A stretch of DNA of 62,238 nt from an uncultured Rikenella sp. (GCA_964411345.1 CAYPKP010000006.1:25942-88179); one strand, 5' to 3'; counted from the stretch's first letter, positions 44,489 through 60,501 are shown. Program-made: numbers and translations. Notes: generated by a model from the sequence alone, not told the origin.

Positions 44489-45343
44489 TTATTTATAGTG
44501 TTCCCTGTAAAACTCCAGGGCTTTTTTCACCGATCCCTGCTCCATCAGAAGTATGCGGGCTGCCTCCCTCTGGATGTCAAGCTCCTCAACTATCATCCTG
44601 GTGCCGCGCTCTATCAGCTTCTTGTTGGTGAGCTGCATGTTGACCATCTTGTTGCCTTTTACCCTGCCAAGCTTGATCATGAGCGTTGTGGTTATCATGT
44701 TCAGCACCATCTTCTGTGCGGTACCGGCCTTAAGCCGTGTGCTTCCCGTTAAAAACTCGGGTCCGACAACCACCACGACGGGGTGTTCAGCTACCTTCAC
44801 TATCGGGCTGTCAGGGTTGCATGTGATGCACCCGGTCAGGATGCCGTTCTCCCTTGCTCTCTGTACCCCTCCGATGACATATGGCGTTGTGCCGGAGGCA
44901 GCAATTCCGATAACCGAATCCTTGGTGTTGATGTTGAAAATCTCCAGCTCGCTCCACGCCTTGGCGGGGTCATCCTCGGCAGACTCCACAGCCTTGCGAA
45001 GCGCGGTCTCTCCTCCGGCAATCAGCCCGATAACCACGGTATCGGGCACACCAAAGGATGGAGGCACCTCTGAGGCGTCCAGCACCCCCAGCCTGCCGCT
45101 GGTGCCTGCCCCGAGATAGAAGAGCCTGCCGCCCTTCTGCATCCTTCCGTAAATCTGGTTGATGAGAGTCTCAATCTGAGGTATCGCCTCCCTGACGGCA
45201 AGGTGTACCTTTGCATCTTCCTGATTTATGTTGGTCAGCAACTCATTGACTGTCATCTTGTCAATATCCTCAAAGTTGGAGGGCGACTCGGTAATGCTTA
45301 GCTGTTGTCTTGTGAGACCTGCTTTACTGGTGCTTCGGTACAT
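44489..45343 (-). CDS. murQ: N-acetylmuramic acid 6-phosphate etherase
   Basis: GRLFYLGAGTSGRLGVLDASEVPPSFG, GPEFLTGSTRLKAGTAQKMVLNM, GNKMV. Confidence 0.95.
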   Translation of the reverse strand: MYRSTSKAGLTRQQLSITESPSNFEDIDKMTVNELLTNINQEDAKVHLAVREAIPQIETLINQIYGRMQKGGRLFYLGAGTSGRLGVLDASEVPPSFGVPDTVVIGLIAGGETALRKAVESAEDDPAKAWSELEIFNINTKDSVIGIAASGTTPYVIGGVQRARENGILTGCITCNPDSPIVKVAEHPVVVVVGPEFLTGSTRLKAGTAQKMVLNMITTTLMIKLGRVKGNKMVNMQLTNKKLIERGTRMIVEELDIQREAARILLMEQGSVKKALEFYREHYK

Positions 45344-46184
45344 CTGGATTCTGAATATGATATTTAACGAGGTTGTCCATCGGAGAGAGGGAGAAAATTC
45401 CCGGCTGCAACCTGTGCTCTATAAGCAGCTTCTCGAGAAATGGCCTGAAATGATATGCAATACTGCCTGTAAAATGGACAGGGAAATCCCTGGCCTCCGG
45501 ATAGGAGAGCACATTCCTTACGATGAACTCATCAAAACTGGATGTTATTATCGCCTGCAGTTCCGGTACATGCAGGTTGTCAGCGATGAAGCGCGAAAAC
45601 TGACCAAGAAATTTATTTGGGAAAGGCATGTTGTACACTCTCTCAAGTATCTGTGCGGGAGTATAGTTGTAAGTCCTGAAGAAGGTATCTATCACCTCAT
45701 CCGGGAACTGCTTCTTCAGTATGCCTGATACCAGTTTCCTGCCTATGACGGCACCGCCTCCCTCGTCGCCAAGGATATAACCAAGCGGAGAGACATTCTC
45801 GACAATATTTCTTCCGTCATAGTAGCATGAGTTGGACCCTGTGCCAATTATGCATGCAATACCTGGCTTGTCCATGCAGAGCGACCTCGCTGCACCCAGC
45901 AGGTCACTGCCGATAAACAGGTCTTCAATGCCAAAAAAGGAGGTCAGAGCTCCCTTTACCACGTCAACCTTTGAGGCGTTGCTGACCCCGGTACAGTAAA
46001 AAAAGAGTTTGCTGACACCCGCATTTGCAAGCTCAGGTATCTCCCTGCCCAGCAAACCGGTAATCTCCTCACGGTTAACAAAAAAAGGATTTATACCGGA
46101 AGATGTGTATGACTTCCCGTTACCGGTCTCTGCAACCTCTCTCCATTCAGTCTTGGTGGAGCCACTGTCAGCGATCAGTATCAT
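45324..46184 (-). CDS. BadF/BadG/BcrA/BcrD-type amino-sugar kinase (MurK/GlcNAc kinase-like)
   Basis: ILIADSGSTKTEW, SDLLGAARS, ACIIGTGSNSC, LGYILGDEGGG; directly upstream of murQ. Confidence 0.85.
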   Translation of the reverse strand: MILIADSGSTKTEWREVAETGNGKSYTSSGINPFFVNREEITGLLGREIPELANAGVSKLFFYCTGVSNASKVDVVKGALTSFFGIEDLFIGSDLLGAARSLCMDKPGIACIIGTGSNSCYYDGRNIVENVSPLGYILGDEGGGAVIGRKLVSGILKKQFPDEVIDTFFRTYNYTPAQILERVYNMPFPNKFLGQFSRFIADNLHVPELQAIITSSFDEFIVRNVLSYPEARDFPVHFTGSIAYHFRPFLEKLLIEHRLQPGIFSLSPMDNLVKYHIQNPDVPKHQ

Positions 46185-49409: not shown

Positions 49410-49418
49410 TCCGACATC

Positions 49419-50891
49419 ATGGAGAGAAAAATAACATGCTTTTTGCCCTGGTCTGACTCCGGCTCAGTGGCAGCAACAGTAAGATCACTCAGGAGTTCAG
49501 AAGCAGTCAGCAGGATCTTCATCGTAGTACCCCCTGACCATACTGGTGATATCGGGATACAGGAGACACAGATTCTTCGGTCAGCAGGATTTGCATCCAC
49601 CGACGCCCTGAAGAAAATGGCAGCGGTGACTGACACCGATTTTGTATTGATATACAGCAAGGGCTTCCCGCTCGATCCGGGGAGATTTGCCTTCGAGCGG
49701 CTGATACAGGTTTGCGAAGGCACAGGTGCCGGCATGGTCTACTCAGACTACTTCGAGAAAAAGAGTGAGAAGCTCTCACCCCATCCTCTGATAGATTACC
49801 AGGAGGGCAGCCTTCGCGACGACTTCAATTTCGGCTCGGTCATCCTTTACAGTGCCGACGCCTTCAGGAAAGCCTGCAGCGCCATGAACGAAGATTACAG
49901 CTTTGCCGGGCAGTACGATCTGAGGCTCAGGGTCTCGCAGTCCTATCCCGTGGTCCATATCCCGGAGATGCTCTATACAGAGGTGGAGACGGACACCCGC
50001 AGGTCGGGTGAGAAGATGTTTGATTATGTCGATCCGCGCAACAGGGAGGTTCAGAAGGAGATGGAGAGAGCCTGTACGGATCACCTCAGGGAGGTCGGCG
50101 CCTGGCTTGGACCGCAGTTCAGGGAGATGGCATTCGATGATGAGACCTTTGAATACGATGCCTCTGTCATCATTCCTGTGCGAAACAGGGTCAAAACCAT
50201 AGGTGATGCCATCGAATCGGTGCTGAGCCAGAAATCGCACTACAGCTTTAACCTGATACTCGTTGACAACCACTCCACCGACGGTACAACTGACGTTGTC
50301 AGGTCGTTTGCAGGCGACAGCAGGGTGGTGCATATCATACCGGAAAGAGATGATCTGGGGATCGGAGGATGCTGGAACGAGGCTATTTTCAGTGATAAGT
50401 GCGGCAAGTTTGCCATACAGCTTGACAGTGACGACCTTTATATCGACGACTCGGTGGTGACAAGGATCGTTGACGCCTTTCATGAGCAGCAGTGCGGCAT
50501 GGTGGTAGGCTCCTACAGGATGGTCAACTTTGAGCTGAAGGATATCCCTCCGGGGCTTATAGACCACAGGGAGTGGACTCCCGACAACGGCAGGAACAAT
50601 GCGTTGAGGATCAACGGCCTCGGGGCTCCCCGGGCCTTCTACACGCCTCTCCTGCGCAGTGTCAGGGTCCCCAACGTCAGCTACGGCGAAGATTATGCCG
50701 TCGGCCTCGCAATAAGCCGGCACTACAGGATAGGACGGATATATGAACCCCTTTATCTCTGCCGCCGCTGGGATGAAAACTCAGATGCCCTTCTGGATGT
50801 CGGAAGGATGAATGCACATAATCTCTATAAGGACAGGATACGCACGATGGAGCTTCTTGCCAGGAGACGTTTGATCAGCAGCGGAAGGTGA
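49419..50891 (+). CDS. Glycosyltransferase family 2 protein (two GT-A-like domains)
   Basis: SVIIPVRNR, LVDNHSTDGT, QLDSDD, YGEDY; N-domain with VYSDY..PLIDYQ.GSLRDDF. Confidence 0.88.
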   Translation: MERKITCFLPWSDSGSVAATVRSLRSSEAVSRIFIVVPPDHTGDIGIQETQILRSAGFASTDALKKMAAVTDTDFVLIYSKGFPLDPGRFAFERLIQVCEGTGAGMVYSDYFEKKSEKLSPHPLIDYQEGSLRDDFNFGSVILYSADAFRKACSAMNEDYSFAGQYDLRLRVSQSYPVVHIPEMLYTEVETDTRRSGEKMFDYVDPRNREVQKEMERACTDHLREVGAWLGPQFREMAFDDETFEYDASVIIPVRNRVKTIGDAIESVLSQKSHYSFNLILVDNHSTDGTTDVVRSFAGDSRVVHIIPERDDLGIGGCWNEAIFSDKCGKFAIQLDSDDLYIDDSVVTRIVDAFHEQQCGMVVGSYRMVNFELKDIPPGLIDHREWTPDNGRNNALRINGLGAPRAFYTPLLRSVRVPNVSYGEDYAVGLAISRHYRIGRIYEPLYLCRRWDENSDALLDVGRMNAHNLYKDRIRTMELLARRRLISSGR

Positions 50892-51032
50892 AACCGGAAA
50901 GCATAGGCAATAAGGACTGAGGAACATATTCGCCCTGAAAATTATTCGCAGGTAAAACTGAAAACCAGATGCTGGGTAAGCTGAAGAGCAGATTTAAGCT
51001 GAGGAGTATTCACAGGGGAAATTGAAAATCAT

Positions 51033-51971
51033 ATGCACGATCACTCAAATATGGTAAATGATCTCTTCGAGAGTCAGTTCATGGAGTGGCCTCTGGCGCG
51101 CGACAACTATGGTCAGCTTGACGGTGTGAGGGTAAGGAAGATACCTTTCCCGGGCTACGAGATCGCCGTGCAGTTTAATCCCGGGAGGATCGTCTCATCA
51201 GCGGCGAAGGTGGATGCCGGCTCCATCAAAGCGAGACCCTGCTTCCTCTGTGAGGATAACAGGCCGCCGGAGCAGAGGGGAGTGCCCTTTGGCAGCGACT
51301 ACATCATACTGATCAATCCCTTTCCGATATTCAGGCGTCATCTTACCATCGTTAACAGGGCACATACACCGCAGCAGATTGAAGGCAACTTTGCCTCAAT
51401 GCTCTCTCTGGCAGAGGCACTGCCCGATTTTGTCATCTTCTACAACGGCCCGCAATGCGGAGCCTCAGCTCCCGACCACCTCCATTTCCAGGCCGGCAAC
51501 AGGGGTTTTCTGCCGGTGGAGAAAGATTTCGGCAAACCTGACCTCGGCACTGCCGCGGTCTCCTCAGAAGGTGTTGAACTACGTCTGTGGAGCGGCTATG
51601 GCAGGGGGATGCTGACTCTTGCGGGGAGTGACAGCAGGGCTATCGACAATGCCTTTTCCCGTTTTTACGGTACGTTTGCCGCCACACAGCCTGAACGGCC
51701 GGAACCCATGCTTAACATGCTTGCTTACCACTCCGCGGGCAGATGGACAGTGCATATAGTACCCCGAAGGGTTCACAGGCCGTCGTGCTACTTTGCCGCG
51801 GAGCAGGAAAGGATTCTGCTGAGCCCGGCGTCAGTTGACATGGGAGGGGTGTTCATCACCCCCAGGGAAGAGGATTACAACAAGATCACCGCCGCTGATA
51901 TCAGCAGCATCCTCGGAGAGGTATGCCTTAGCGACGGTGAGATGAAATCATTAACGGAAGTACTATTATGA
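51033..51971 (+). CDS. DUF4922 protein (HIT/GalT-like HxHxQ nucleotidyl transferase/phosphorylase)
   Basis: QFNPGRIVSS.AKVD, RPCFLC, NPFPIF..HLTI, FYNGPQCGASAPDHLHFQAG. Confidence 0.82.
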   Translation: MHDHSNMVNDLFESQFMEWPLARDNYGQLDGVRVRKIPFPGYEIAVQFNPGRIVSSAAKVDAGSIKARPCFLCEDNRPPEQRGVPFGSDYIILINPFPIFRRHLTIVNRAHTPQQIEGNFASMLSLAEALPDFVIFYNGPQCGASAPDHLHFQAGNRGFLPVEKDFGKPDLGTAAVSSEGVELRLWSGYGRGMLTLAGSDSRAIDNAFSRFYGTFAATQPERPEPMLNMLAYHSAGRWTVHIVPRRVHRPSCYFAAEQERILLSPASVDMGGVFITPREEDYNKITAADISSILGEVCLSDGEMKSLTEVLL

Positions 51972-53311
51972 AGGAGAGAAGCTTTCCCGAAATAAGCGTG
52001 GGCATAGTGTCAGGCAAGGCACTGACGGTCACTCTCAACGGAGAGTATAATGTCTCAGGGGCTGAGCGAAGCATTCAAGGCCAGTGGACTGCAGCATTCA
52101 GTGAAGGCAGAGTCGTGCTCACAGGTGACGGAGCCCCCGTACAGGCAGGCCGGGAGCTGATACTGGTGCCGGCAGATCACCGGCGCTGCAGCTTCACCCT
52201 CCATGCCGTGACCATAGGCGTAGCCTTTCACTGGGAGCGCAACGAAGACCAGACCTTCGTGGGCAAGCTGAAGTTCATGATCATTGAAGAGCGGGTTACG
52301 GCAGTAAATCTGGTGCCTGTTGAGGATTACCTTGCCAGTGTGATCTCCTCGGAGATGAGTGCCACATCATCGGTGGAGCTGCTGAAGGCGCACGCCGTGA
52401 TATCAAGGAGCTGGCTGCTGGCGCAGATCGACAAAACCGCACGCCTCGAAGCAGGAGGAAAGCGGCATGCTGCAAACCAGGTTACCGCAGGTGAAATCAT
52501 CCGTTGGTATGACCGGGAAGACCACAGGGAGTATGATGTTTGCGCTGATGATCACTGCCAGCGTTACCAGGGGATCACCAGGGCAACAACTCCGGAGGTG
52601 GAGAGCGCTGTGCGGGAGACAGCCGGAGAGGTGCTCATGTCAGGCGATGCACTGTGTGATGCACGTTACTCCAAGTGCTGCGGCGGCATCACTGAACTGT
52701 TTGAAAACGTTTGGGAGCCGGTAAGCCACGACTGTCTGCAGAGCGTCACGGATGCTGTCCGTCCGCCCGAGGGCTTCAACACGGATCTCACCACAGAGGA
52801 GAATGCTGTCAGATGGATAAAAGGTAATCCAGGAGCCTTCTGCAACAGCAATGACAGGGCGGTCCTGTCGCAGGTGCTCAACAGCTATGACCAGGAGACC
52901 AACGACTTCTTCCGTTGGAAGGTGGCATACAGGCAGGAGGAGCTCAGTGCCCTGGTGAGGGAGCGCACCGGCATCGATTTTGGCTTGATAACGGCCATGG
53001 AACCGCTGGAACGCGGCACCTCCGGGCGCATCATAAAACTGAAGATCACGGGTGACAGGAAGAGTATGATAATTGGCAAGGAGCTGGAGATCAGAAAGGC
53101 ACTCTCAACGTCGCATCTTTACAGCTCGGCCTTCTTTGTAGAGACAGAAGATGACGAACAGGGCAGATCCTTTATACTTCACGGCGCCGGATGGGGCCAC
53201 GGGGTGGGACTCTGCCAGATAGGAGCCGCGGTTATGGGCTCTCTGGGCTTCGGGTACACGGAGATCCTCTCGCACTATTTTGTACATTCAGTGCTTCAAA
53301 AGATATACTAA
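51968..53311 (+). CDS. SpoIID/LytB-domain protein (putative lytic transglycosylase)
   Basis: EDYLASVISSEM, KAHAVISRS, DDHCQRYQG, GAGWGHGVGLCQIGA, ILSHYF. Confidence 0.9.
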   Translation: MKERSFPEISVGIVSGKALTVTLNGEYNVSGAERSIQGQWTAAFSEGRVVLTGDGAPVQAGRELILVPADHRRCSFTLHAVTIGVAFHWERNEDQTFVGKLKFMIIEERVTAVNLVPVEDYLASVISSEMSATSSVELLKAHAVISRSWLLAQIDKTARLEAGGKRHAANQVTAGEIIRWYDREDHREYDVCADDHCQRYQGITRATTPEVESAVRETAGEVLMSGDALCDARYSKCCGGITELFENVWEPVSHDCLQSVTDAVRPPEGFNTDLTTEENAVRWIKGNPGAFCNSNDRAVLSQVLNSYDQETNDFFRWKVAYRQEELSALVRERTGIDFGLITAMEPLERGTSGRIIKLKITGDRKSMIIGKELEIRKALSTSHLYSSAFFVETEDDEQGRSFILHGAGWGHGVGLCQIGAAVMGSLGFGYTEILSHYFVHSVLQKIY

Positions 53312-53312
53312 G

Positions 53313-55781
53313 ATGAAAAGCATTATTTCACTTGCATTGCTGTTATGCCTGCCTTTTTTTACCGCAGAGGCAGACTCATGGATAAGGATCAACCAGCTGG
53401 GATACCTTCCGCAGTCGGTGAAGGTGGCAGTATACATCTCGCAGGAGCCGGGGGCCAAACCTACATTCACGGTCTGTGATGCCCTGACGGGAAAGAGGGT
53501 ATTCACCGGCAAGGCATCCCTATATGACGGTTCGGCATGGGGTATGGGTGCCGCAGCCAGGCTTGACTTCTCGGCACTGACATCTCCGGGAGGCTATTAT
53601 ATCAGGTACGGAAACACCATCTCGGAGACATTTCGCATAGGCCATGGGGTCTATGACGGTACGGCTGACTTCATTCTGAACTATATCAGGCAGCAGCGTT
53701 GCGGGTACAATCCCTTCCTGGCCGACACATGTCATGCCCATGACGGGGTCATTGTGGATCATCCTGCCCTTACAGGAACGGTCATTGATGTCAGGGGAGG
53801 GTATCATGATGCCAGTGATCACCTGAGATACACAGCCACCACATCCACTTCGGTCTACCAGATGATGTTCGCCTGGGAGAGATCGCCGGAGATCTACGGC
53901 GACAGCCATGATGCTGCCGGTATGCCCGGCAGCAACGGTATTCCCGATATCCTTGATGAGGCAAGGTGGGGCCTGGAGTGGCTGCTGAAGATGAACCCCG
54001 ACAGCGGGATGATGTTCAACCAGGTGGCTGACGACCGTGACCACCGGGGATTCAGGCTGCCGAACCTCGACAGGGCCGACTACGGGCTGGGGCCCTACAG
54101 GCCGGTTTACTTTGTCACAGGCAAGCCGCAGGGACTGGCCAGGTTCAAGAACCGCACCGAGGGAGTAGCCTCCACGGCAGGCAAATTTGCCTCGGTCTTT
54201 GCCATGGGGGCACGCATCTTTGCCGGCAGTGATCCCTCATTTGCCGCTCTAATGAAGTCAAGGGCTGCCGATGCCCTGGAGTATGCCCGTACTGACCCCG
54301 GTGCCACACAGACAGCCTGCAACGTCTCTCCCTATTTCTATGAGGAGGACAACTATGTTGATGACATGCAGCTGGCAGCATGGGAACTGTGGTCCCTCAC
54401 CGGTGATCAGGAGCTCCTGGCCGAGGCCGACTACTGGGGGACGCTCGAACCATTCACTCCGTGGATAGAGAAAGACACGGCACGCCATTACCAGTTTTAC
54501 CCGTTTGTTAACCTGGGGCACGCCCGGCTCGCCATGTCAGACACGCAGTATTCCCAAAAATATATTGACTTCATGCGGAAGGGGCTCGACCTTATCAACG
54601 CCCGCGATCAGCATGATGTCTTCCAGGTGAAGATACCCTTTGTGTGGTGCTCCAACAACTATGTGGCCGCAGCCCTGACACAGTGCAGGCTCTACCGCGA
54701 AATTACGGGAGACGGCAGGTTTGATCATATGGAGGCGGCGATGCGCGACTGGCTCTTCGGGTGCAACCCGTGGGGGACATCGATGATATGCGGGCTGCCG
54801 TCCGGAGGCGACTACCCCCTATATCCCCACTCGGCCGTTACAGTATACCTTGGCCAGACGACAACGGGAGGACTGGTTGACGGGCCGGTATACAGGGGCA
54901 TCTATGAGAGCCGCAAAGGGATCACCTTGCTAAATCCGGATCCCTATGCCGCCTTCCAGAACGGTCCTGTAGTCTATCACGATGACATCGGCGACTACAG
55001 CACGAACGAGCCTACGCTCGACGGTACTGCCAGCCTCAGCTATTACCTCTCCACGCTGGAGAAGGAGGGAAGGCAGGGTCGCGACCTGGCTTCGGGCGAT
55101 ATCCGGGATGATCACGGCGCCCTCATCAGGAAGAGCTCCGGAGAAAAGGCAATATACCTGCTCTTCTCCGCTGATGAGTATGGAGAAGGGTTTGATCACA
55201 TACTCAATGTGCTTGACCGCAAGATGATCAAAGGCTCTTTCTTTCTGACAGGCAATTTTCTCAGGAACAAACAGTTTGCGTCTGTAATTAAACGGCTGAT
55301 TTCCGGTGGTCACTACCTCGGGCCACACTCGGACGGACACCTTCTGTATATACCCTGGGAGAACCGCGATACCCTGCTGGTCACCAAGGATCAGTTCAAC
55401 CAGGATATGAGAAAGAACATCATTGAGCTGGGACGGGCAGGAGTCAGGGAGAAACCCCGCTGGTTCCTGGCGCCCTATGAATGGTACAACAGTGCCATCA
55501 GCCGGTGGAGTGAAGAGCTGGGGCTTACACTGGTGAACATCACTCCGGGCACCGGTACAGGCGCAGACTACACCACACCCGGGATGGCGAACTACAGGTC
55601 ATCGGAGTTTCTGATTGAGAGGCTTGCCAGGTTTGAGGAGAACTCACCCCTGGGACTGAACGGGGCGCTGCTGCTGATCCACCCGGGCACTGATCCGGCG
55701 CGGGAGGACAAGCTCTACCTGAAGCTGGAAGAGCTGATTGAATATTATCAGGAAAAAGGTTACACATTCAAAAAGTTATAA
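53313..55781 (+). CDS. GH9 (Ig-like + catalytic) fused to a C-terminal CE4 polysaccharide deacetylase
   Basis: IRINQLGY, DVRGGYHDASD, STNEPTLDG; then LLFSADE, GPHSDGHL, FLAPYE, LLIHPG; start at 53313. Confidence 0.82.
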   Translation: MKSIISLALLLCLPFFTAEADSWIRINQLGYLPQSVKVAVYISQEPGAKPTFTVCDALTGKRVFTGKASLYDGSAWGMGAAARLDFSALTSPGGYYIRYGNTISETFRIGHGVYDGTADFILNYIRQQRCGYNPFLADTCHAHDGVIVDHPALTGTVIDVRGGYHDASDHLRYTATTSTSVYQMMFAWERSPEIYGDSHDAAGMPGSNGIPDILDEARWGLEWLLKMNPDSGMMFNQVADDRDHRGFRLPNLDRADYGLGPYRPVYFVTGKPQGLARFKNRTEGVASTAGKFASVFAMGARIFAGSDPSFAALMKSRAADALEYARTDPGATQTACNVSPYFYEEDNYVDDMQLAAWELWSLTGDQELLAEADYWGTLEPFTPWIEKDTARHYQFYPFVNLGHARLAMSDTQYSQKYIDFMRKGLDLINARDQHDVFQVKIPFVWCSNNYVAAALTQCRLYREITGDGRFDHMEAAMRDWLFGCNPWGTSMICGLPSGGDYPLYPHSAVTVYLGQTTTGGLVDGPVYRGIYESRKGITLLNPDPYAAFQNGPVVYHDDIGDYSTNEPTLDGTASLSYYLSTLEKEGRQGRDLASGDIRDDHGALIRKSSGEKAIYLLFSADEYGEGFDHILNVLDRKMIKGSFFLTGNFLRNKQFASVIKRLISGGHYLGPHSDGHLLYIPWENRDTLLVTKDQFNQDMRKNIIELGRAGVREKPRWFLAPYEWYNSAISRWSEELGLTLVNITPGTGTGADYTTPGMANYRSSEFLIERLARFEENSPLGLNGALLLIHPGTDPAREDKLYLKLEELIEYYQEKGYTFKKL

Positions 55782-55783
55782 GC

Positions 55784-57454
55784 ATGGCAGGCAAGAATGC
55801 CAACCGCTCCCCGTGGGCATGGGTTCCTTCGCTCTATTTCTACCAGGGTATTCCCTACAGCATAGTGATGACCACCTCCGGGCTCATTTACAAGACCATG
55901 GGTGTCTCTGTGGCTTCGTTTGCCTTCTGGACGAGCATCCTCTATCTGCCCTGGGCGCTGAAGCCACTCTGGAGTCCCTATATAGATGTCGTATCGACAA
56001 AGCGCAACTGGGTGGTATGGACACAGCTGCTGATAGCGGCCACCTTCATCGGCGCAGGCCTGGCGATGCAGCTGCCGATGTTCTATCCCATCACCATAGC
56101 GATCTTTGCCATCATCGCTATCTCCTCTGCGAGCCATGATATTGCCGCCGACGGTTTCTACATGTATGCCCTCAACCAGCACAAGCAGGCCTATTTTGTA
56201 GGTATACGAAGCACCTTCTACCGTTTTGCCATGCTCACGGCGCTGGGCCTTATCCCGCTGGTTGCCGGGATAGTACAGAAGAACACCGGTCTTGAGCCTC
56301 TCGCTTTTGAGGCGAGATCAGTAAGCCTGGCCGACTATCAGCCTTTTGATCCTGCAACCATAGAGATCAAGGAAGAACCGGGAGAACCCCGGCTGCTTCT
56401 GTACCCTGAAGAGATTACCGTGCCGATGTGGGAGGCAGGGGTCTCCGAGCTCGACTCGGCAGTTGTCTTCATAGCCCTCTCCGCTCCCCCGGAAGAGGGG
56501 GAGACCATCGTTGTCAACATCGCCCGCGAAGGCGGAAGCAAGGATATCGATATACCCAGGAACCAGGTAAGCAGGTTCGAGTTCACCGGCAGCAACTGGG
56601 ACGTTCCTGCCGCCGTTTCGCTGAAAACGCACCATAACCTCAAGGAGGCCACAACGGCGGAGTTTGGCATCACCGCCGGGAATATAGCCTTCAGCTGGAC
56701 AGTCTCGCTGGGGGTGCTGGGGCTGCTGCTCCTCCTGCTGGCGCTCTACAACCGCTATATTCTTCCCCGGCCTGCGGAGAATGACATCCGTGAGAAGGTG
56801 AGCCTGAAGGTCTTTGTTGAGGTCTTCGTCTCCTTCTTCACCAAGCCTGGTGTTGTCGCCGCCCTGGCCTTCTTCCTGCTTTACAGGCTTGGCGAGGCAC
56901 AGCTGGTGAAGATTGCCACACCCTTCCTGGTCGATTCCAGAAGCATGGGAGGCATAGGTCTTACCTCGGCACAGTACGGCATCATCTACGGCACCCTGGG
57001 CATGGTCTGCCTGACCATAGGGGGCATCCTGGGCGGCATCCTGGCGGCGAAATACGGACTGAAGAAGCTGATCTGGTACATGGCTGTGGCAATGAACCTT
57101 CCCAACCTTGTATATGTCTATCTTGCCTATGCTCAGCCGATGCCCGGCGACCTGGGTGTCTATCTCTCCGTCGCCACCGAGCAGCTGGGTTACGGTTTCG
57201 GGTTCACGGCCTATTCTCTCTTCATGCTCTATTATGTGGGCGAGAGCAAATACAAGACCGCCGAGTTCGCCATAGGTACGTCACTGATGGCCCTGGGAAT
57301 GATGCTGCCGGGCATGGTGTCGGGAAAGATATTCGAGGCGATAGGCTATGAACACTTCTTTATCTGGGTGTTGATATGCACCATTCCGGGGATGCTCTCA
57401 ATACTGTTCCTGAAGATCGATCCCGGGTTTGGACTCAAGAAGAACGAAGGATAA
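55784..57454 (+). CDS. ampG: AmpG-family muropeptide MFS permease with ~129-aa insertion
   Basis: PWAWVPSLYF.QGIPY, LPWALKPLWSP, SASHDIAADGFY, GIRSTFYR, YRLGEAQL, EQLGYGFG, MMLPGMVSG. Confidence 0.88.
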   Translation: MAGKNANRSPWAWVPSLYFYQGIPYSIVMTTSGLIYKTMGVSVASFAFWTSILYLPWALKPLWSPYIDVVSTKRNWVVWTQLLIAATFIGAGLAMQLPMFYPITIAIFAIIAISSASHDIAADGFYMYALNQHKQAYFVGIRSTFYRFAMLTALGLIPLVAGIVQKNTGLEPLAFEARSVSLADYQPFDPATIEIKEEPGEPRLLLYPEEITVPMWEAGVSELDSAVVFIALSAPPEEGETIVVNIAREGGSKDIDIPRNQVSRFEFTGSNWDVPAAVSLKTHHNLKEATTAEFGITAGNIAFSWTVSLGVLGLLLLLLALYNRYILPRPAENDIREKVSLKVFVEVFVSFFTKPGVVAALAFFLLYRLGEAQLVKIATPFLVDSRSMGGIGLTSAQYGIIYGTLGMVCLTIGGILGGILAAKYGLKKLIWYMAVAMNLPNLVYVYLAYAQPMPGDLGVYLSVATEQLGYGFGFTAYSLFMLYYVGESKYKTAEFAIGTSLMALGMMLPGMVSGKIFEAIGYEHFFIWVLICTIPGMLSILFLKIDPGFGLKKNEG

Positions 57455-57471
57455 CAGTATCGGGGAGCGAC

Positions 57472-60400
57472 ATGGTAACGGAAGAGAAGTTCAGAAAGCT
57501 TGCGGAAGAGATCACCGGTGATCTCTATACTGACATTACACAGCGTATACTCTATGCCACGGATGCCTCGGCATACAGGGAGGTGCCCCTGGCAGTGACC
57601 AGGCCTGCCGGCCGTGATGATATAAAAAAGATAATTGCCTTTGCCCGTCGCGAGGGCACATCGGTCATCCCCCGCGGGGCCGGCACCTCGCTGGCAGGCC
57701 AGGTGGTGGGGCCGGGGATCGTCATGGACATCTCAAAACATCTGAACCGTATCCTTGAGTTCAACCCGGGGGAGCGCTGGGTTACGGTGGAACCCGGCGT
57801 GGTACTGGCGGAGCTGAACCGGTATGTGGCTCCTCACCGCCTGCAGTTCGGTCCCGAGACATCCACCGCAAACCGCTGCTGCATGGGAGGCATGCTGGGC
57901 AACAACTCATGCGGTGCTCACTCCATCATCCATGGCAGCGTGAGAGACCACATCCTCGAGGTTGATGCCGTTCTGTCCGACGGGTCAGAGGTCCATTTTG
58001 GCGCTCTCACCAGGGAGGAGTTCAACGCAAAGTGCGACGGTGACCCCGGACTGCTGGAGACGCAGATTTACAGAAATCTCCGAGACATCCTCTCCGATCA
58101 GCGAAATGCGGAGGAGATAGAGAGGGAGTTCCCTCATCCGGAGCTGCGGCGGCGAAACAACGGTTATGCCCTCGACATAATGCTGAGGACGGATCCATTT
58201 ACCGGTAACGGTGAGAAGATAAACGTTTGCAGGCTCCTGGCAGGTTCGGAAGGTACCCTGGCCTTCACCACGGTCATGAAGCTGAACCTGGTACCAGTCA
58301 CTGAACAGAAGACCGGGTTGCTCTGCGCCCACTTCAACAGCCTGCAGGATGCCGTCAGGGCTAACATTATCGTGCTTAAGCACTCGCCTGCCGCCGTGGA
58401 GCTGATAGATGACTATATCGTCAACTGCACCGGCGACAACATTGAGCAGAGCAAAAACCGCTTCTTCATCAAGGGCGATCCGAAGGCAATACTGCTGATT
58501 GAGATCATCCGGCCGACTTTTCAGGAGATAGAGAAGACAGCTTCGGCTATGGAGAGGGATATGATTGCTGCAGGCTACGGCTACCATTTTCCGCTTTATA
58601 CCGGTGCCGAAGAGATGGCGAGGGTGTGGGAGCTGCGCAGGGCCGGCCTGGGGGTGCTGCTCAATATCCCCGGCAGGAAGAAGAGCGTTCAGGTCATAGA
58701 GGATACCGCCGTGCTGCCGGAGCTCTTTCCCGGTTACCTGGAGGATGTCACTACCGTACTTGAGAAATACGGGCTGAGCTGCGCATACTACGCACATATT
58801 GCCACCGGAGAGCTGCATCTCAGTCCCCTGCTTGACCTGAAAGACCCTGCCGACATAGAGATATTTCACGGTCTGGCCAGGGATATAGCCCTTCTTGTAA
58901 AGAAGTACCGCGGTTCGCTCAGCGGCGAGCACGGCGACGGCAGGCTGAGGGGTGAGTTTATCCCCCTGATGCTCGGGGAGCATAACTACGAGCTGCTGAA
59001 GGCGATAAAGAAAACGTGGGATCCGGCTTCTGTATTCAATCCGGGAAAAATTACCGACACTCCCCCCATAACCGGCAACCTGAGGTATCCGGCAGGAGTC
59101 AGGATGAAGGTGCCGGGGATAGTCTTTGACTTTCCGGAGGAGGAGGGGCTGCTCTATGCCACGGAGAAGTGCAGCGGCTCGGCCGACTGCCGCAAGAGCG
59201 CCCTTGTGGGAGGCGCCATGTGCCCGACTTTCATGGCAACGGGCGACGAGGATAAGTCGACACGCGCCAGGGCAAATATCCTGAGGGAGTTCCTGACGAG
59301 ATCGGAAAAAACGAACCGGTTTGACCATGAGGAGATATACCGGGTGATGGATCTCTGCCTCTCATGCAAGGCATGCAAGGCCGAGTGTCCTTCAAACGTC
59401 GATGTGGCCAAGCTCAAGGCCGAGTTCCTGCAGCATTATTATGATATCCACCACGTGCCTTTCCGTGCATGGCTCATAGCATGGCTGCCACGGCTGTACA
59501 TCCCCGGCATGATGGTTCGTCCGCTTACCAACCTGGTGACCTCAACGGCTCTCTTCAAGCGCATCATTGGCTTCTCGGTGAAACGACCCATCCCTGCCCT
59601 CTCGCCCGTCACGTTAAGAGCATGGCAGAGACGTCACATCAGAAATAGCGTCGGATTTAATGGCAGTGCGGATGGAGCCGGGAGAAAATCGGTCACTGCT
59701 GCTACCGTCGGTTCCGGCACTGAAGATCACCTGCTGGGCAGCAGAGACCATCTCATATCGAAAGGCACCGTCTGCCTCTTTGCCGATGAGTTCACCAACT
59801 ACAACGAGAGCGACATTGGCATCAAGGCGGTGATGCTGCTTGAGAGACTGGGATACAATGTCATCATCCCGCGCCACAGGGAGAGCGGACGCACCTTCCT
59901 CTCCAAGGGACTGATACGGTCGGCACGCAGGCTGGCCCTGAAAAATATACTGATGCTGAAGGATGTTGTCTCCGAAGAACGGCCGCTGATAGGCATCGAG
60001 CCGTCAGCGCTCCTGACCTTCCGGGACGAGTATCCTGACATGGCAGGAGAGTCACTGGCTGAAGATGCGCGTAACATTGCGCGCAACGCACTCCTCTTTG
60101 AGGAATTCATCTCCCGCGAGGCGGACAGGGGTAATATCACGCCGGACCAGTTTACGGACCGGTCCCTGAAGATACTGCTGCACGGCCACTGCCAGCAGAA
60201 GGCGGTGGCATCGACTGCTCCCACCGTCACGATGCTGTCGCTGCCCCGCAACTACAGCGTTGAGGAGATAAATGACGGCTGCTGCGGCATGGCAGGAGCC
60301 TTCGGCTACGAAAAGGAGCACTATGACCTGAGCATGAAGATAGGCGAAATGGTGCTCTTTCCGGCTGTGCGGGCTGCAGAGGCTGAGACTGTAATAGCTG

Positions 60401-60501
60401 CACCGGGCACATCCTGCCGGCACCACATCGCTGACGGCACGGGACGCCGGGCGCTGCATCCGGTTGAGATAATGTATGACGCTCTTGAGAAACAGGATTG
60501 A
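57472..60501 (+). CDS. FAD-linked oxidase + [4Fe-4S] + CCG protein (YdiJ/GlcD-like D-2-hydroxyacid dehydrogenase)
   Basis: YATDASAY, PRGAGTSLAGQ, GGMLGNNSCG, GSEGTL, SGEHGDG, CSGSADC, CLSCKACKAECP, HGHCQQKA, CCGMAGAFG. Confidence 0.9.
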   Translation: MVTEEKFRKLAEEITGDLYTDITQRILYATDASAYREVPLAVTRPAGRDDIKKIIAFARREGTSVIPRGAGTSLAGQVVGPGIVMDISKHLNRILEFNPGERWVTVEPGVVLAELNRYVAPHRLQFGPETSTANRCCMGGMLGNNSCGAHSIIHGSVRDHILEVDAVLSDGSEVHFGALTREEFNAKCDGDPGLLETQIYRNLRDILSDQRNAEEIEREFPHPELRRRNNGYALDIMLRTDPFTGNGEKINVCRLLAGSEGTLAFTTVMKLNLVPVTEQKTGLLCAHFNSLQDAVRANIIVLKHSPAAVELIDDYIVNCTGDNIEQSKNRFFIKGDPKAILLIEIIRPTFQEIEKTASAMERDMIAAGYGYHFPLYTGAEEMARVWELRRAGLGVLLNIPGRKKSVQVIEDTAVLPELFPGYLEDVTTVLEKYGLSCAYYAHIATGELHLSPLLDLKDPADIEIFHGLARDIALLVKKYRGSLSGEHGDGRLRGEFIPLMLGEHNYELLKAIKKTWDPASVFNPGKITDTPPITGNLRYPAGVRMKVPGIVFDFPEEEGLLYATEKCSGSADCRKSALVGGAMCPTFMATGDEDKSTRARANILREFLTRSEKTNRFDHEEIYRVMDLCLSCKACKAECPSNVDVAKLKAEFLQHYYDIHHVPFRAWLIAWLPRLYIPGMMVRPLTNLVTSTALFKRIIGFSVKRPIPALSPVTLRAWQRRHIRNSVGFNGSADGAGRKSVTAATVGSGTEDHLLGSRDHLISKGTVCLFADEFTNYNESDIGIKAVMLLERLGYNVIIPRHRESGRTFLSKGLIRSARRLALKNILMLKDVVSEERPLIGIEPSALLTFRDEYPDMAGESLAEDARNIARNALLFEEFISREADRGNITPDQFTDRSLKILLHGHCQQKAVASTAPTVTMLSLPRNYSVEEINDGCCGMAGAFGYEKEHYDLSMKIGEMVLFPAVRAAEAETVIAAPGTSCRHHIADGTGRRALHPVEIMYDALEKQD

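What the first reader, a model, noticed from the sequence alone, without database searches (positions are those of the whole stretch)
49419..51971. GT2 + DUF4922: unexplained nucleotide-sugar module inside a catabolic cell-wall operon
Seen: a cytoplasmic two-domain GT2 beside a protein with HLHFQ. Known: HxHxQ marks the GalT/Ap4A-phosphorylase/VTC2 transferase branch of the HIT superfamily, which exchanges NMP between sugar-1-phosphates or phosphate. Neither enzyme type is part of the known E. coli (AnmK-MurQ) or Pseudomonas (AmgK-MurU) recycling routes. Inference: a new route, for example GT2 running as a phosphorylase/transglycosylase on imported GlcNAc-anhMurNAc while DUF4922 interconverts the NDP-sugar or sugar-1-P product.
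Basis: partly seen in the sequence, partly recalled or inferred. Interest (0 to 1): 0.72.

Follow-up and report, generated by a model that had tools for sequence, protein, structure and literature searches.

The report
Uncharacterised cytoplasmic enzyme trio beside AmpG
A soluble glycosyltransferase, a GalT/GDP-sugar-phosphorylase-like enzyme and a signal-less SpoIID-like enzyme form a conserved, sometimes fused cassette next to the muropeptide importer AmpG in Bacteroidales. They are the best candidates for the still-unknown cytoplasmic steps of cell-wall sugar salvage in this group, but their chemistry is untested.

Summary
Window 49419-50891 encodes a soluble 490-aa tandem GT-A protein, of which only the C-terminal half keeps the GT2 catalytic motifs. 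Window 51033-51971 encodes a 312-aa DUF4922/GDPGP1_C protein with HLHFQ, a GalT-like CFLC motif and an Apa2/GalT-like predicted fold.

Both genes lie in a tight plus-strand operon with AmpG, divergent from murK-like/murQ. The linkage is not chance:
- GT2 lies directly upstream of DUF4922 in 57 of 69 usable genome loci.
- DUF4922 follows GT2 in 47 of 59 GT2-anchored metagenome loci.
- AmpG lies within 8 kb in 53 of 62 loci.

New here: the downstream SpoIID/LytB-like gene has no signal peptide in any of 63 homologues. DUF4922 also occurs fused to SpoIID, to the GT2, or to a GNAT. The unit is therefore a cytoplasmic GT2 + DUF4922 + SpoIID-like trio.

The association itself is already published. 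The same gene order is one transcript in Tannerella forsythia (Tanf_08345-08385), whose two "gtf" genes are stated to be of unknown function.

My best guess is an NDP-cycling "split phosphorylase" acting on imported GlcNAc-(anh)MurNAc (confidence about 0.35). It is inferred, not shown, and it faces a thermodynamic objection if the nucleotide is UDP.

The parts
49419..50891 (+). Soluble 490-aa tandem GT-A glycosyltransferase (GT2). The N-terminal half (aa 1-190) is a conserved but degenerate GT-A. The C-terminal half (aa 246-460) is catalytic.
   Evidence: - Pfam PF00535 at 71.9 bits.
- AF2 model with pLDDT 80, two GT-A halves.
- Foldseek K4CP 2e-17; also heparosan synthase, LH3, TarP/TarS.
- Profile against PDB hits K4CP at 5e-13.
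- Mean column identity is 76% over 50 homologues.
- No TM segment or signal peptide.
50424..50435 (+). DSDD (aa 336-339): the DxD metal/diphosphate motif of the catalytic C-terminal GT-A domain.
   Evidence: D336, S337, D338 and D339 are invariant in 50 homologues. The motif aligns with the K4CP motif QLDSDD.
50685..50696 (+). GEDY (aa 423-426): the ED motif, the presumed catalytic base of GT2 enzymes. It is followed at 50760-50771 by an invariant CRRW.
   Evidence: G423, E424, D425, Y426 and C448, R449, R450, W451 are invariant. The catalytic role is inferred from general GT2 knowledge.
49419..49988 (+). N-terminal GT-A-like half of the GT2. It is paralogous to the C-terminal half, but its DxD-equivalent (DTDF, aa 72-75) is not conserved and ED is replaced by GQ/GL. 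It carries invariant family-specific motifs: YSDY 108-111, RDDFNFG 133-139 and YDLRL 166-170.
   Evidence: The halves align at BLASTP E 0.005.
51033..51971 (+). 312-aa DUF4922 + GDPGP1_C protein: a GalT/Apa2/GDP-hexose-phosphorylase-like HIT-superfamily nucleotidyl transferase or phosphorylase.
   Evidence: - Pfam DUF4922 at 1.5e-62.
- Precomputed PF26216 is labelled GDPGP1_C.
- AF2 model has pLDDT 86.
- Foldseek hits: Apa2 9e-10, ADP-glucose phosphorylase 5.5e-06, GalT 2e-05.
- Profile against PDB hits Apa2 at E 0.0026.
51477..51491 (+). HLHFQ (aa 149-153): the HxHxQ nucleotidyl-histidine motif. H151 aligns with the catalytic His of Apa2.
   Evidence: It aligns to HKHLQ of 4i5t, which reads HKALQ in the 4i5v chain. 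HxHxQ is present in 149 of 150 family representatives. H149, H151 and Q153 are invariant.
51240..51251 (+). CFLC (aa 70-73): a CxxC motif resembling the structural zinc site of E. coli GalT.
   Evidence: C70 and C73 are invariant. CxxC is present in 148 of 150 representatives. It is collinear with CFLC of a recalled E. coli GalT sequence (weak, E 0.27). The Zn role is from my own knowledge of GalT.
51968..53311 (+). 447-aa SpoIID/LytB-domain protein with no signal peptide: the third cytoplasmic member of the module. Its start codon overlaps the DUF4922 stop codon (ATGA).
   Evidence: - TIGR02669 at 8e-48.
- SSEM with the catalytic Glu (aa 127-130) and GHGVG align with B. anthracis and C. difficile SpoIID.
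- None of 63 homologues has a hydrophobic N-terminus.
- It is fused to DUF4922 in 5 loci and in 6 cluster representatives.
55784..57454 (+). AmpG-family MFS muropeptide permease (556 aa), the importer that defines the cassette.
   Evidence: TIGR00901 at 3e-44. It lies within 8 kb of DUF4922 in 53 of 62 loci. The T. forsythia orthologue imports GlcNAc-MurNAc and GlcNAc-anhMurNAc (bioRxiv 10.1101/2021.12.02.470905; PMC7670621).
46389..49409 (+). First gene of the operon: a 1006-aa secreted protein (Golvesin_C, fn3, weak Amidase_3). It is the positional equivalent of the T. forsythia 'xanthan lyase' Tanf_08345.
   Evidence: Pfam result. Signal-peptide-like N-terminus. Present in 46 of 80 loci.
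53280..55781 (+). Secreted GH9 + CE4 (polysaccharide deacetylase) fusion protein. It is a lineage-specific insert between the SpoIID-like gene and ampG.
   Evidence: Pfam GH9 at 1e-65 and Polysacc_deac_1 at 7e-12. Present in 25 of 80 loci.
44489..46184 (-). Divergently transcribed murQ (44489-45343) and a BadF-type MurK-like kinase (45324-46184).
   Evidence: NF003915 at 5.7e-111 and a weak BcrAD_BadFG match. They are in the same locus as DUF4922 in 21 (murQ) and 26 (kinase) of the 39 loci with full 10-kb flanks.
57376..60501 (+). Last gene of the operon: an FAD/Fe-S 2-hydroxyacid oxidase (YdiJ/GlcD-like). It is a candidate D-lactate dehydrogenase for the MurQ by-product.
   Evidence: NF049975 at 3.8e-161, below its cutoff. 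A related gene is present in 29 of 80 loci. The D-lactate role is inferred.

Best explanation
**What it is.** GT2, DUF4922 and the signal-less SpoIID-like protein are a cytoplasmic enzyme module. It acts on the cargo of the AmpG permease, namely peptidoglycan disaccharides such as GlcNAc-beta1,4-MurNAc and GlcNAc-beta1,4-anhMurNAc. This is in Bacteroidales, a group in which cytoplasmic NagZ/AnmK-type steps have not been identified.

**Most likely mechanism (inferred).**
- The catalytic C-terminal GT-A domain of the GT2 interconverts the beta-linked disaccharide plus an NDP with NDP-alpha-GlcNAc plus free (anh)MurNAc.
- DUF4922, a GDPGP1/GalT-type enzyme working through a nucleotidyl-histidine, converts NDP-sugar + Pi to sugar-1-phosphate + NDP.
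- The NDP therefore cycles catalytically, and the pair amounts to a two-protein glycoside phosphorylase: disaccharide + Pi -> GlcNAc-1-P + MurNAc.
- MurNAc then goes to the adjacent kinase and MurQ, or to AmgK/MurU.
- The SpoIID-like enzyme belongs to the only enzyme class known to make the 1,6-anhydro bond. It handles the MurNAc anomeric end. It either opens the anhydro ring or cleaves MurNAc-GlcNAc bonds in imported oligomers.

**Shown here.** Gene content, motifs, folds, cytoplasmic location, conserved linkage and fusions.

**Shown elsewhere.** AmpG import and co-transcription in T. forsythia.

**Inferred.** Every substrate, the direction of each reaction and the identity of the nucleotide.
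For: **Family chemistry**
- DUF4922 carries both Pfam domains of the GDP-hexose phosphorylases GDPGP1/VTC2 (PMC7041677 for GDPGP1 activity and its DUF4922 domain).
- It has the Apa2/ADP-glucose phosphorylase/GalT fold.
- HxHxQ and CxxC are kept in at least 148 of 150 representatives.
- The GT2 C-terminal domain keeps DSDD and ED invariant. It resembles UDP-sugar-using inverting GT-A enzymes. An inverting enzyme matches the beta-linkage of GlcNAc-MurNAc and an alpha-sugar-1-P.

**Coupling**
- GT2-DUF4922 occurs as a single polypeptide: P0286 at 806 aa, P0317 at 831 aa, and P0378.
- A glycosyltransferase fused to an NDP-sugar phosphorylase gives net phosphorylase stoichiometry whichever way it runs.
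- DUF4922-SpoIID fusions occur in 5 genome loci and 6 cluster representatives.

**Compartment**
- None of the three has a signal peptide or TM segment.

**Context**
- The genes are adjacent to AmpG, MurK-like, MurQ, NamZ and MurT in most loci.
- They lie next to AmgK-like/MurU-like genes in L091 and L020.

**The gap it would fill**
- T. forsythia imports GlcNAc-anhMurNAc through AmpG and grows on it, yet has no predicted AnmK (PMC7670621).
- The operon's two gtf genes are of unknown function (bioRxiv 10.1101/2021.12.02.470905).
Against: - No biochemical or genetic datum exists for any of the three proteins.
- Physiological reversal of a GT2 is unusual. My estimate from standard free energies is that, with a typical high UDP-GlcNAc/UDP ratio, UDP-dependent cleavage of an ordinary beta-glycoside is uphill by more than 20 kJ/mol. 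The scheme therefore needs a nucleotide whose GlcNAc conjugate is otherwise absent, or a very strong pull by DUF4922.
- Some lineages have GT2-AmpG or GT2-SpoIID-AmpG cassettes without DUF4922 nearby: L101, L108, L113, L118, L122, L123, L143, L144, L147. Others have DUF4922 without GT2: L038, L039, L043, L047. The pair is therefore not obligatorily adjacent.
- GalT-like features (CFLC) fit a sugar-1-P exchange transferase as well as a phosphorylase.
- The role of the highly conserved N-terminal pseudo-GT-A half is unexplained.
- SpoIID-type enzymes are only known to act in the forward (lytic) direction on denuded glycan strands.
Confidence: 0.35

Rival explanations
1. **Anabolic salvage with a GalT-type exchange.** DUF4922 is a uridylyltransferase, not a phosphorylase. 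It swaps UMP between UDP-GlcNAc (or another UDP-sugar) and MurNAc-1-P or GlcNAc-1-P. This makes UDP-MurNAc or UDP-GlcNAc without UTP. The GT2 runs in its normal forward direction, using such a UDP-sugar on an imported fragment.
For: - GalT-like CFLC plus HxHxQ are collinear with E. coli GalT, and GalT is among the fold hits.
- The weak NCBIfam hits are all to UDP-glucose--hexose-1-phosphate uridylyltransferase.
- GNAT-DUF4922 fusions recall the acetyltransferase + uridylyltransferase pairing of GlmU.
- GT2 sits next to AmgK-like/MurU-like genes in L091.
- The forward GT direction is thermodynamically natural.
Against: - The closest family by Pfam (DUF4922 + GDPGP1_C) and the best fold match (Apa2) are phosphorylases.
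- No sensible acceptor or product for a forward GT reaction is apparent in an import/catabolic operon.
- AmgK/MurU already provide UDP-MurNAc in T. forsythia (PMC7670621).
Confidence: 0.2
2. **Closed ATP-free cycle that turns GlcNAc-anhMurNAc directly into PG precursors.**
- GT2 + UDP gives UDP-GlcNAc + anhMurNAc.
- The SpoIID-like enzyme opens the anhydro ring with phosphate to give MurNAc-1-P.
- DUF4922 exchanges UMP: UDP-GlcNAc + MurNAc-1-P gives UDP-MurNAc + GlcNAc-1-P.
For: - It uses the family chemistry of all three enzymes.
- It explains why DUF4922 is fused either to the GT2 or to SpoIID.
- It would explain growth of the MurNAc auxotroph T. forsythia on GlcNAc-anhMurNAc without AnmK (PMC7670621).
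Against: - Phosphorolytic opening of a 1,6-anhydro sugar by a lytic-transglycosylase fold is unprecedented.
- The stereochemistry is uncertain: alpha-1-P is needed, whereas retention would give beta.
- It faces the same thermodynamic problem for the GT2 step.
- It is entirely inferential.
Confidence: 0.1
3. **The GT2/DUF4922 genes serve glycan biosynthesis.** Examples are S-layer or protein O-glycosylation, or capsule. This is how the T. forsythia operon was first labelled. On this view they are merely co-regulated with muropeptide uptake because both depend on the amino-sugar supply.
For: The T. forsythia operon was described as 'glycosylation related', and its down-regulation in a gppX mutant accompanied altered glycosylation (as summarised in PMC5388701).
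Against: - The cassette is conserved next to ampG across many families with different surface glycans.
- Fusion to a SpoIID-like peptidoglycan enzyme is hard to reconcile with surface-glycan synthesis.
- No flippase, polymerase or lipid-carrier genes are in the cassette.
- The GT2 is soluble.
Confidence: 0.07
4. **NDP-sugar pool proofreading.** DUF4922, like GDPGP1, only destroys an aberrant NDP-sugar that arises when large amounts of salvaged amino sugars flood the cytoplasm. The GT2 is functionally independent of it.
For: GDPGP1 is described as a GDP-glucose phosphorylase in PMC7041677. [quoted passage not shown] Some loci have DUF4922 without GT2.
Against: - Covalent GT2-DUF4922 and DUF4922-SpoIID fusions argue for direct coupling.
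- Adjacency is strict in about 80% of loci.
Confidence: 0.05

Closest known systems
Tannerella forsythia ampG-murTKQ operon (Tanf_08345-Tanf_08385)
   Same: The gene order is the same: large secreted protein ('xanthan lyase'), gtf, gtf, lytB, ampG, then (namZ, murT) murK, murQ. Loci L031, L036, L046 and L057-L060 reproduce this order with the window's homologues. The operon is co-transcribed and GppX-regulated (PMC5388701).
   Different: - In the window, murK-like/murQ are divergent on the other strand.
- A GH9+CE4 gene is inserted.
- No namZ or murT is present.
- A GntR regulator and a GH18 are attached.
Equivalence is inferred from position and annotation.
GDP-hexose phosphorylases GDPGP1 / VTC2 (DUF4922 + GDPGP1_C)
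   Same: They have the same two Pfam domains and the HxHxQ motif. The chemistry is NDP-sugar + Pi -> sugar-1-P + NDP (PMC7041677).
   Different: - They are eukaryotic, longer and act on GDP-hexoses.
- The bacterial protein sits in a peptidoglycan-salvage cassette, keeps a GalT-like CxxC, and has unknown substrates.
Yeast Ap4A phosphorylase Apa2, Arabidopsis ADP-glucose phosphorylase, and E. coli/human GalT
   Same: They give the best structural matches (Foldseek E 9e-10 to 2e-05). The catalytic His aligns. The CFLC motif is GalT-like.
   Different: Identity is 10-16%. TM-scores of only 0.3-0.6 suggest that the domain arrangement differs. The choice between transferase and phosphorylase is unresolved.
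Tandem GT-A enzymes: K4CP chondroitin polymerase, heparosan synthase PmHS2, and human LH3 with its accessory GT-A domain
   Same: The architecture is two consecutive GT-A domains. The DxD-containing catalytic domain aligns with K4CP.
   Different: Here only the C-terminal domain keeps DxD/ED. That resembles LH3's catalytic-plus-accessory arrangement more than a bifunctional polymerase. There is no evidence of polymer synthesis.
Sucrose synthase / TreT-type reversible glycosyltransferases coupled to NDP-sugar (pyro)phosphorylases
   Same: It would work like these if the proposed mechanism is right: NDP-dependent cleavage of a glycoside by a GT, followed by recovery of sugar-1-P (established plant and archaeal biochemistry, from my own knowledge).
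   Different: Those enzymes are GT-B (GT4/GT20-type) and act on high-energy disaccharides. No GT2 or peptidoglycan example is known.
Known PG recycling routes: E. coli AmpG-NagZ-AnmK-MurQ and Pseudomonas AmgK-MurU
   Same: They share the importer AmpG and the end enzymes MurQ or AmgK/MurU.
   Different: Neither route contains a GT2, a HIT-type enzyme or a cytoplasmic SpoIID-like protein. T. forsythia has no AnmK (PMC7670621).
SpoIID sporulation lytic transglycosylase (PDB 4rwr, 5i1t, 5txu)
   Same: The SpoIID domain is present, with the SxEM catalytic Glu and the GHGVG motif conserved.
   Different: SpoIID and LytB act outside the membrane. The cassette protein has no export signal in 63 of 63 homologues and is fused to a cytoplasmic enzyme.

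Membership tests
HIT superfamily, GalT/Apa/GDPGP1 branch | HxHxQ nucleotidyl-histidine motif | tested here: met
   HLHFQ is at aa 149-153. It is invariant in 49 homologues and present in 149 of 150 representatives. It aligns with HKHLQ of Apa2.
HIT superfamily, GalT/Apa/GDPGP1 branch | Two-lobed HIT-like alpha/beta fold | tested here: met
   The AF2 model has pLDDT 86. Foldseek probability is 1.00 to Apa2, ADP-glucose phosphorylase and GalT, and single-lobe matches to Hint proteins also appear. TM-scores are only 0.3-0.6.
HIT superfamily, GalT/Apa/GDPGP1 branch | Covalent NMP-His intermediate; phosphorolysis or sugar-1-P exchange of an NDP-sugar | not testable with these tools
   This needs an enzyme assay.
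GDPGP1/VTC2 family (Pfam DUF4922 + GDPGP1_C) | Both Pfam domains above threshold | tested here: met
   PF16269 scores 210 bits against a cutoff of 23.6. PF26216 is precomputed for the window's protein and most homologues and is labelled GDPGP1_C.
GDPGP1/VTC2 family (Pfam DUF4922 + GDPGP1_C) | Specificity for GDP-hexoses | not testable with these tools
   The nucleotide and the sugar are unknown.
GalT (Leloir uridylyltransferase) | Match to the curated GalT models above cutoff | tested here: not met
   NCBIfam GalT models score 15-20 bits against cutoffs of 628-1223. The protein is not a GalT orthologue, although it shares the CFLC and HxHxQ motifs.
Glycosyltransferase family 2 (inverting GT-A) | Pfam Glycos_transf_2 domain and GT-A fold | tested here: met
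   PF00535 scores 71.9 bits. Foldseek hits K4CP, TarP, TarS and SpsA-type structures.
Glycosyltransferase family 2 (inverting GT-A) | DxD motif and downstream acidic catalytic base | tested here: met
   In the C-terminal domain, DSDD 336-339 and ED 424-425 are invariant. In the N-terminal domain the DxD-equivalent is variable and ED is absent.
Glycosyltransferase family 2 (inverting GT-A) | NDP-sugar-dependent glycosyl transfer with inversion | not testable with these tools
   This needs an assay.
Processive membrane GT2 synthases (NodC/PgaC/cellulose-synthase type) | Transmembrane channel and QxxRW motif | tested here: not met
   There are no TM segments. The invariant CRRW only resembles QxxRW. 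NCBIfam scores are far below cutoffs.
SpoIID/LytB lytic transglycosylases | SpoIID domain with the catalytic Glu | tested here: met
   TIGR02669 scores 163.7 bits against a cutoff of 83.3. SSEM aligns with ASEM/AGEM of the solved SpoIID structures.
SpoIID/LytB lytic transglycosylases | Extracytoplasmic location (signal peptide or membrane anchor) | tested here: not met
   No hydrophobic N-terminus was found in 63 of 63 homologues, even at the longest possible ORF. The protein is fused C-terminally to the cytoplasmic DUF4922.
Bacteroidetes AmpG-centred peptidoglycan salvage operon (T. forsythia type) | Conserved linkage of these genes with ampG, murK and murQ | tested here: met
   Co-transcription is shown only in T. 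forsythia (PMC5388701), not in this organism.

The most novel reading that the evidence does not exclude
The trio is an ATP-independent salvage machine, possibly a physical complex as the fusions suggest. It would conserve the bond energy of imported GlcNAc-anhMurNAc in three steps. An NDP-dependent reverse glycosyl transfer is carried out by a GT2. The NDP-sugar is then phosphorolysed or exchanged by a GDPGP1/GalT-like HIT enzyme. The 1,6-anhydro ring is opened by a cytoplasmic lytic-transglycosylase-fold enzyme. The products would be sugar-1-phosphates or UDP-MurNAc/UDP-GlcNAc, obtained without NagZ, AnmK or AmgK. That would be a third, mechanistically new peptidoglycan recycling route, and the first physiological 'split phosphorylase' built from a GT-A enzyme.
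Probability: 0.25. Interest if true: 0.85.

Novelty: new variant of a known kind. Interest (0 to 1): 0.62.

Why it matters
- **An open gap in the pathway.** Peptidoglycan recycling is understood in detail only for the E. coli and Pseudomonas routes. In Bacteroidetes, which include gut commensals and the MurNAc-auxotrophic periodontal pathogen T. forsythia, it is not known how AmpG-imported disaccharides are split, or how anhMurNAc is used without AnmK.
- **Concrete candidates.** This analysis narrows the candidates to three co-inherited, sometimes fused, cytoplasmic enzymes. It also gives testable reactions for each.
- **If the split-phosphorylase idea holds.** It would add a new enzymatic logic to cell-wall salvage. 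It would give the large bacterial DUF4922 family its first function; the profile search found 2079 cluster representatives.
- **If the SpoIID-like enzyme opens the anhydro ring.** That would be a new activity for the lytic transglycosylase fold.

Tried and rejected
- **Single-sequence search against the PDB.** The search with DUF4922 returned only WD40-repeat proteins through summed weak repeats. I rejected these as spurious; the profile search and the fold search gave the HIT relatives instead.
- **Plasmid megablast of the pair.** No match.
- **Sigma-70 promoter and intrinsic terminator scan.** Uninformative. The hits lie inside coding regions, terminator-like sites were 20 against 11.8 ± 3.4 in shuffles, and Bacteroidetes promoters are not covered.
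- **RNA-seq search.** Only DNA metagenomes (sludge and digesters) hold the sequence, so there is no expression evidence for this organism.
- **A phosphosugar mutase in the cassette.** This would have supported a sugar-1-P product. None was found among the 30 commonest neighbour families.
- **The multi-TM neighbour (NagX/HGSNAT-like) as an N-acetyltransferase clue.** Its position just upstream of murK matches T. forsythia MurT, so I dropped it as evidence.
- **N-terminal GT-A half as a second active transferase (K4CP-like bifunctional polymerase).** Rejected as unlikely, because its DxD-equivalent is not conserved and ED is missing.
- **Antisense ORF 49776-50723 (315 aa).** Judged spurious, because it lies wholly inside the strongly conserved GT2 frame.
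- **Whole-genome presence or absence of NagZ, AnmK, AmgK and MurU.** This could not be done with the available scans.

Full report
**1. What is at the coordinates**

- The ORF at 49419-50891 (+) encodes 490 aa. The ORF at 51033-51971 (+) encodes 312 aa.
- Pfam places Glycos_transf_2 on residues 249-382 of the first protein (71.9 bits, cutoff 23.3). It places DUF4922 (E 1.5e-62), plus a weaker Ap4A_phos_N match, on the second.
- HLHFQ is at residues 149-153 of the second protein, nt 51477-51491.
- Neither protein has a hydrophobic N-terminus or a membrane segment.

**2. The neighbourhood**

The plus strand from 46389 to 60501 carries seven tightly spaced or overlapping genes:

| Gene | Coordinates | Notes |
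|---|---|---|
| 1006-aa secreted protein | 46389-49409 | Golvesin_C, fn3, weak Amidase_3 |
| GT2 | 49419-50891 | Starts 10 nt after the previous stop |
| DUF4922 | 51033-51971 | 141-nt gap before it |
| SpoIID/LytB-domain gene | 51968-53311 | ATG overlaps the DUF4922 stop |
| Secreted GH9+CE4 protein | 53280-55781 | |
| AmpG-family permease | 55784-57454 | TIGR00901, E 3e-44 |
| FAD/Fe-S 2-hydroxyacid oxidase | 57376-60501 | |

Divergent from this operon are a BadF-type kinase, murQ (NF003915, 370 bits), a GntR/FCD regulator and a secreted GH18. The rest of the window is unrelated metabolism. The closest genome locus is a Bacteroidales MAG, UBA4772, at 87-98% protein identity. The DNA itself is found in sludge and digester metagenomes.

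**3. The GT2**

- Homologues are very conserved, with 67-94% identity among the 50 aligned and a mean column identity of 76%.
- The AlphaFold model (pLDDT 80) has two GT-A-like halves joined by a helix.
- Foldseek's best hits are the tandem GT-A enzymes K4CP (E 2e-17), heparosan synthase and LH3. Single-domain hits include TarP, TarS and others.
- A profile search against the PDB aligns the C-terminal half with K4CP, including QLDSDD.
- The two halves are paralogous (BLASTP E 0.005).
- Only the C-terminal half keeps an invariant DSDD (336-339) and ED (424-425).
- The N-terminal half has a variable DxD-equivalent and no ED. It does keep its own invariant motifs: YSDY, RDDFNFG and YDLRL.
- I read this as one catalytic GT-A plus a conserved accessory or binding GT-A. 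It is not a bifunctional polymerase.

**4. The DUF4922 protein**

- The family is large. More than 7500 homologues turned up in the word-indexed search. The exhaustive profile search found 2079 representatives of 50% clusters.
- Precomputed Pfam adds PF26216, which the context tool labels GDPGP1_C. The protein therefore has both domains of the GDP-hexose phosphorylases GDPGP1/VTC2. Their DUF4922 domain and phosphorylase activity are described in PMC7041677.
- The model (pLDDT 86) matches, in order:
  - yeast Ap4A phosphorylase Apa2 (E 9e-10);
  - a DUF4931 protein;
  - Arabidopsis ADP-glucose phosphorylase;
  - GalT.
- The profile aligns HLHFQ with Apa2's HKHLQ.
- HxHxQ is present in 149 of 150 representatives. 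A CxxC, mostly CFLC, is present in 148 of 150.
- The CFLC and the FYNGPQCGASAPDHLHFQ stretch are collinear with CFLC and FENKGAAMGCSNPHPHGQ of E. coli GalT. That GalT sequence was recalled from memory and the alignments are weak.
- Curated GalT models are far below their cutoffs.
- Membership of the GalT/Apa/GDPGP1 branch is established. Whether the enzyme is a phosphorylase or a transferase, and which nucleotide it uses, is not.

**5. Is the linkage real?**

Genome loci anchored on DUF4922. There are 80, at 41-87% identity, from Rikenellaceae, Muribaculaceae, Paludibacteraceae, Prolixibacteraceae, Porphyromonadaceae, Marinilabiliales and one Cytophagales.

| Neighbour | Loci with it / loci with enough flank |
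|---|---|
| GT2 immediately upstream | 57 of 69 |
| SpoIID-like gene downstream | 65 of 75 |
| AmpG within 8 kb | 53 of 62 |

Among the 39 loci with full 10-kb flanks, murQ is present in 21 and the kinase in 26.

Reciprocal test, using metagenome loci anchored on the GT2:

| Neighbour | Loci with it / loci with enough flank |
|---|---|
| DUF4922 follows | 47 of 59 |
| SpoIID-like gene | 40 of 51 |
| AmpG | 28 of 33 |

Other recurrent neighbours and variants:
- NamZ-like exo-muramidase occurs in about 40 loci, the MurT-like transporter in about 20, and secreted GH3-beta-lactamase fusions and NagB-like genes recur.
- L091 has GT2, an L-Ala-D/L-Glu epimerase, an AmgK-like gene and a MurU-like gene. 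L020 carries MurT, AmgK and MurU downstream.
- Variant cassettes exist: GT2-SpoIID-AmpG, GT2-AmpG, and DUF4922 without GT2.
- The pair is therefore strongly, but not obligatorily, adjacent.

**6. New observations**

- The SpoIID-like protein has no signal peptide even at its longest ORF. The same holds for all 63 separate homologues examined.
- It keeps the catalytic SxEM glutamate and the GHGVG motif of solved SpoIID structures.
- In five genome loci DUF4922 and SpoIID are one ORF of 733-859 aa.
- Among 150 family representatives, which are less than 50% identical to each other, the fusions are as follows:
  - six DUF4922-SpoIID;
  - three GT2-DUF4922;
  - three GNAT-DUF4922.
- Two of these fusions were confirmed in their genomic context, each followed by SpoIID and AmpG.
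- The fusions show that the three enzymes share a compartment, the cytoplasm, and act together.

**7. What is already known**

- In T. forsythia the order 'xanthan lyase'-gtf-gtf-lytB-ampG-ybbC(namZ1)-murT-murK-murQ is a single GppX-activated transcript (PMC5388701).
- AmpG there imports GlcNAc-MurNAc and GlcNAc-anhMurNAc and is needed for growth on peptidoglycan. No AnmK orthologue is predicted (PMC7670621).
- The 2021 NamZ preprint states that the functions of Tanf_08345, 08350 and 08355 are unknown (10.1101/2021.12.02.470905).
- Several loci here reproduce that order with the window's homologues.
- I did not have the Tannerella sequences, so equivalence rests on position and annotation.
- Full-text searches found no paper that assigns a function. 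The only three papers that mention DUF4922 concern the eukaryotic GGP/GDPGP1 enzymes.

**8. Mechanism**

Shown:
- There are three soluble enzymes with intact catalytic motifs.
- They are co-inherited and sometimes fused.
- They lie next to the importer and the MurNAc catabolic genes.

Inferred:
- A glycosyltransferase covalently fused to an NDP-sugar phosphorylase-type enzyme gives, in either direction, the net reaction glycoside + Pi <-> sugar-1-P + aglycone, with NDP as a catalytic carrier.
- In an import/catabolic context the sensible direction is phosphorolysis of GlcNAc-beta1,4-(anh)MurNAc.
- An inverting GT-A fits the beta-bond and an alpha-1-phosphate.
- MurNAc would then enter the adjacent kinase/MurQ route, or AmgK/MurU. 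The D-lactate released by MurQ could be oxidised by the terminal FAD/Fe-S oxidase.
- The SpoIID-like enzyme acts at the MurNAc anomeric centre. It could open the anhydro ring, which would explain anhMurNAc use without AnmK. Alternatively it could trim imported oligomers.

Caveats:
- From standard free energies (my estimate), reversal with UDP against a normal UDP-GlcNAc pool is strongly uphill. A dedicated nucleotide, or a strong pull by DUF4922, is required.
- The GalT-like features and the GNAT fusions fit an exchange-type, GlmU-like anabolic role equally well.
- Cassettes lacking DUF4922 exist.

I put the split-phosphorylase reading at about 0.35 and the anabolic exchange reading at about 0.2. 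The closed ATP-free cycle to UDP-MurNAc gets about 0.1. Surface glycosylation or pool proofreading get 0.1 or less together.

**9. Verdict**

The family assignments and the linkage to recycling genes are right. The association is already published as 'function unknown'. The proposed chemistry is untested.
- The finding gains value from the cytoplasmic SpoIID-like third partner and from the fusion evidence. Together they define a concrete, testable module for the missing cytoplasmic steps of Bacteroidetes peptidoglycan salvage.

Noticed in passing
window 51968-53311; loci L010 10001-12280, L023 9992-12268, L059 4887-7106, L067 7387-9588, L078 9875-12454: The SpoIID/LytB-like protein lacks any export signal in 63 of 63 homologues. 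In several lineages it is translationally fused to DUF4922. A cytoplasmic lytic-transglycosylase-fold enzyme is unexpected, and it might act on 1,6-anhydroMurNAc.
   Followed up: partly
P0314, P0360, P0365; locus L161 8001-9533: GNAT acetyltransferase-DUF4922 fusion proteins sit in the usual GT2-x-SpoIID-AmpG context. The pairing recalls the acetyltransferase + uridylyltransferase pairing of GlmU, and it hints that hexosamine-1-phosphates are substrates.
   Followed up: partly
window 55784-57454: The AmpG homologue is 556 aa. The AmpG model matches it in two stretches, the second covering aa 331-540, so the middle of the protein carries extra sequence. AmpG genes in other cassettes are about 425 aa (L161, L162). 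tblastn identities split into classes of about 40% and about 70%, which suggests two AmpG subtypes.
   Followed up: no
window 53280-55781: This is a secreted fusion of a GH9 domain (with the CelD_N Ig-like domain) and a CE4 polysaccharide deacetylase. It is inserted between the SpoIID-like gene and ampG in the Rikenellaceae-like subset (25 of 80 loci). It may deacetylate and then remove amino-sugar residues from glycan strands.
   Followed up: no
window 57376-60501: A 1041-aa FAD/Fe-S oxidase (YdiJ/GlcD/GlpC-like) ends the operon. It is a plausible D-lactate dehydrogenase for the lactate released by MurQ. More distant relatives (about 25% identity) occupy a similar position in Muribaculaceae and Porphyromonadaceae loci.
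   Followed up: no
window 50760-50771 (GT2 aa 448-451) and 50523-50627 (aa 369-403): An invariant CRRW lies 23 residues after the ED motif and resembles the QxxRW acceptor-binding motif of processive GT2 synthases. A 35-residue, almost invariant loop (PPGLIDHREWTPDNGRNNALRINGLGAP) is modelled with very low confidence and may be a substrate lid.
   Followed up: no
locus L091 6001-10449; locus L020 8300-11282: In L091 the GT2 has no DUF4922, SpoIID or AmpG beside it. It is followed by an L-Ala-D/L-Glu epimerase, an AmgK-like kinase and a MurU-like uridylyltransferase. L020 has MurT-AmgK-MurU downstream of DUF4922-SpoIID-AmpG. This links the module to the anabolic UDP-MurNAc salvage route.
   Followed up: partly
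window 46389-49409: The 1006-aa secreted first gene is the positional equivalent of the T. forsythia 'xanthan lyase'. It has only weak domain matches (Golvesin_C, fn3, sub-threshold Amidase_3) and no NCBIfam match. It may be the amidase that strips peptides from glycan strands.
   Followed up: no
window 50892-51032: A 141-nt non-coding gap separates GT2 and DUF4922, whereas the other operon genes abut or overlap. No terminator-like site or RNA feature was examined there.
   Followed up: no
window 49776-50723 (- strand): A 315-aa antisense ORF lies entirely inside the GT2 gene. It is judged spurious because the GT2 frame is strongly conserved.
   Followed up: partly
loci L038, L039, L043, L047: In Prolixibacteraceae-type loci DUF4922 follows the large secreted protein directly, without GT2, SpoIID or AmpG. 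In L038 it is followed by a NamZ-like gene, an NlpC/P60 endopeptidase and an L-Ala-D/L-Glu epimerase. This is still a peptidoglycan-recycling context.
   Followed up: partly
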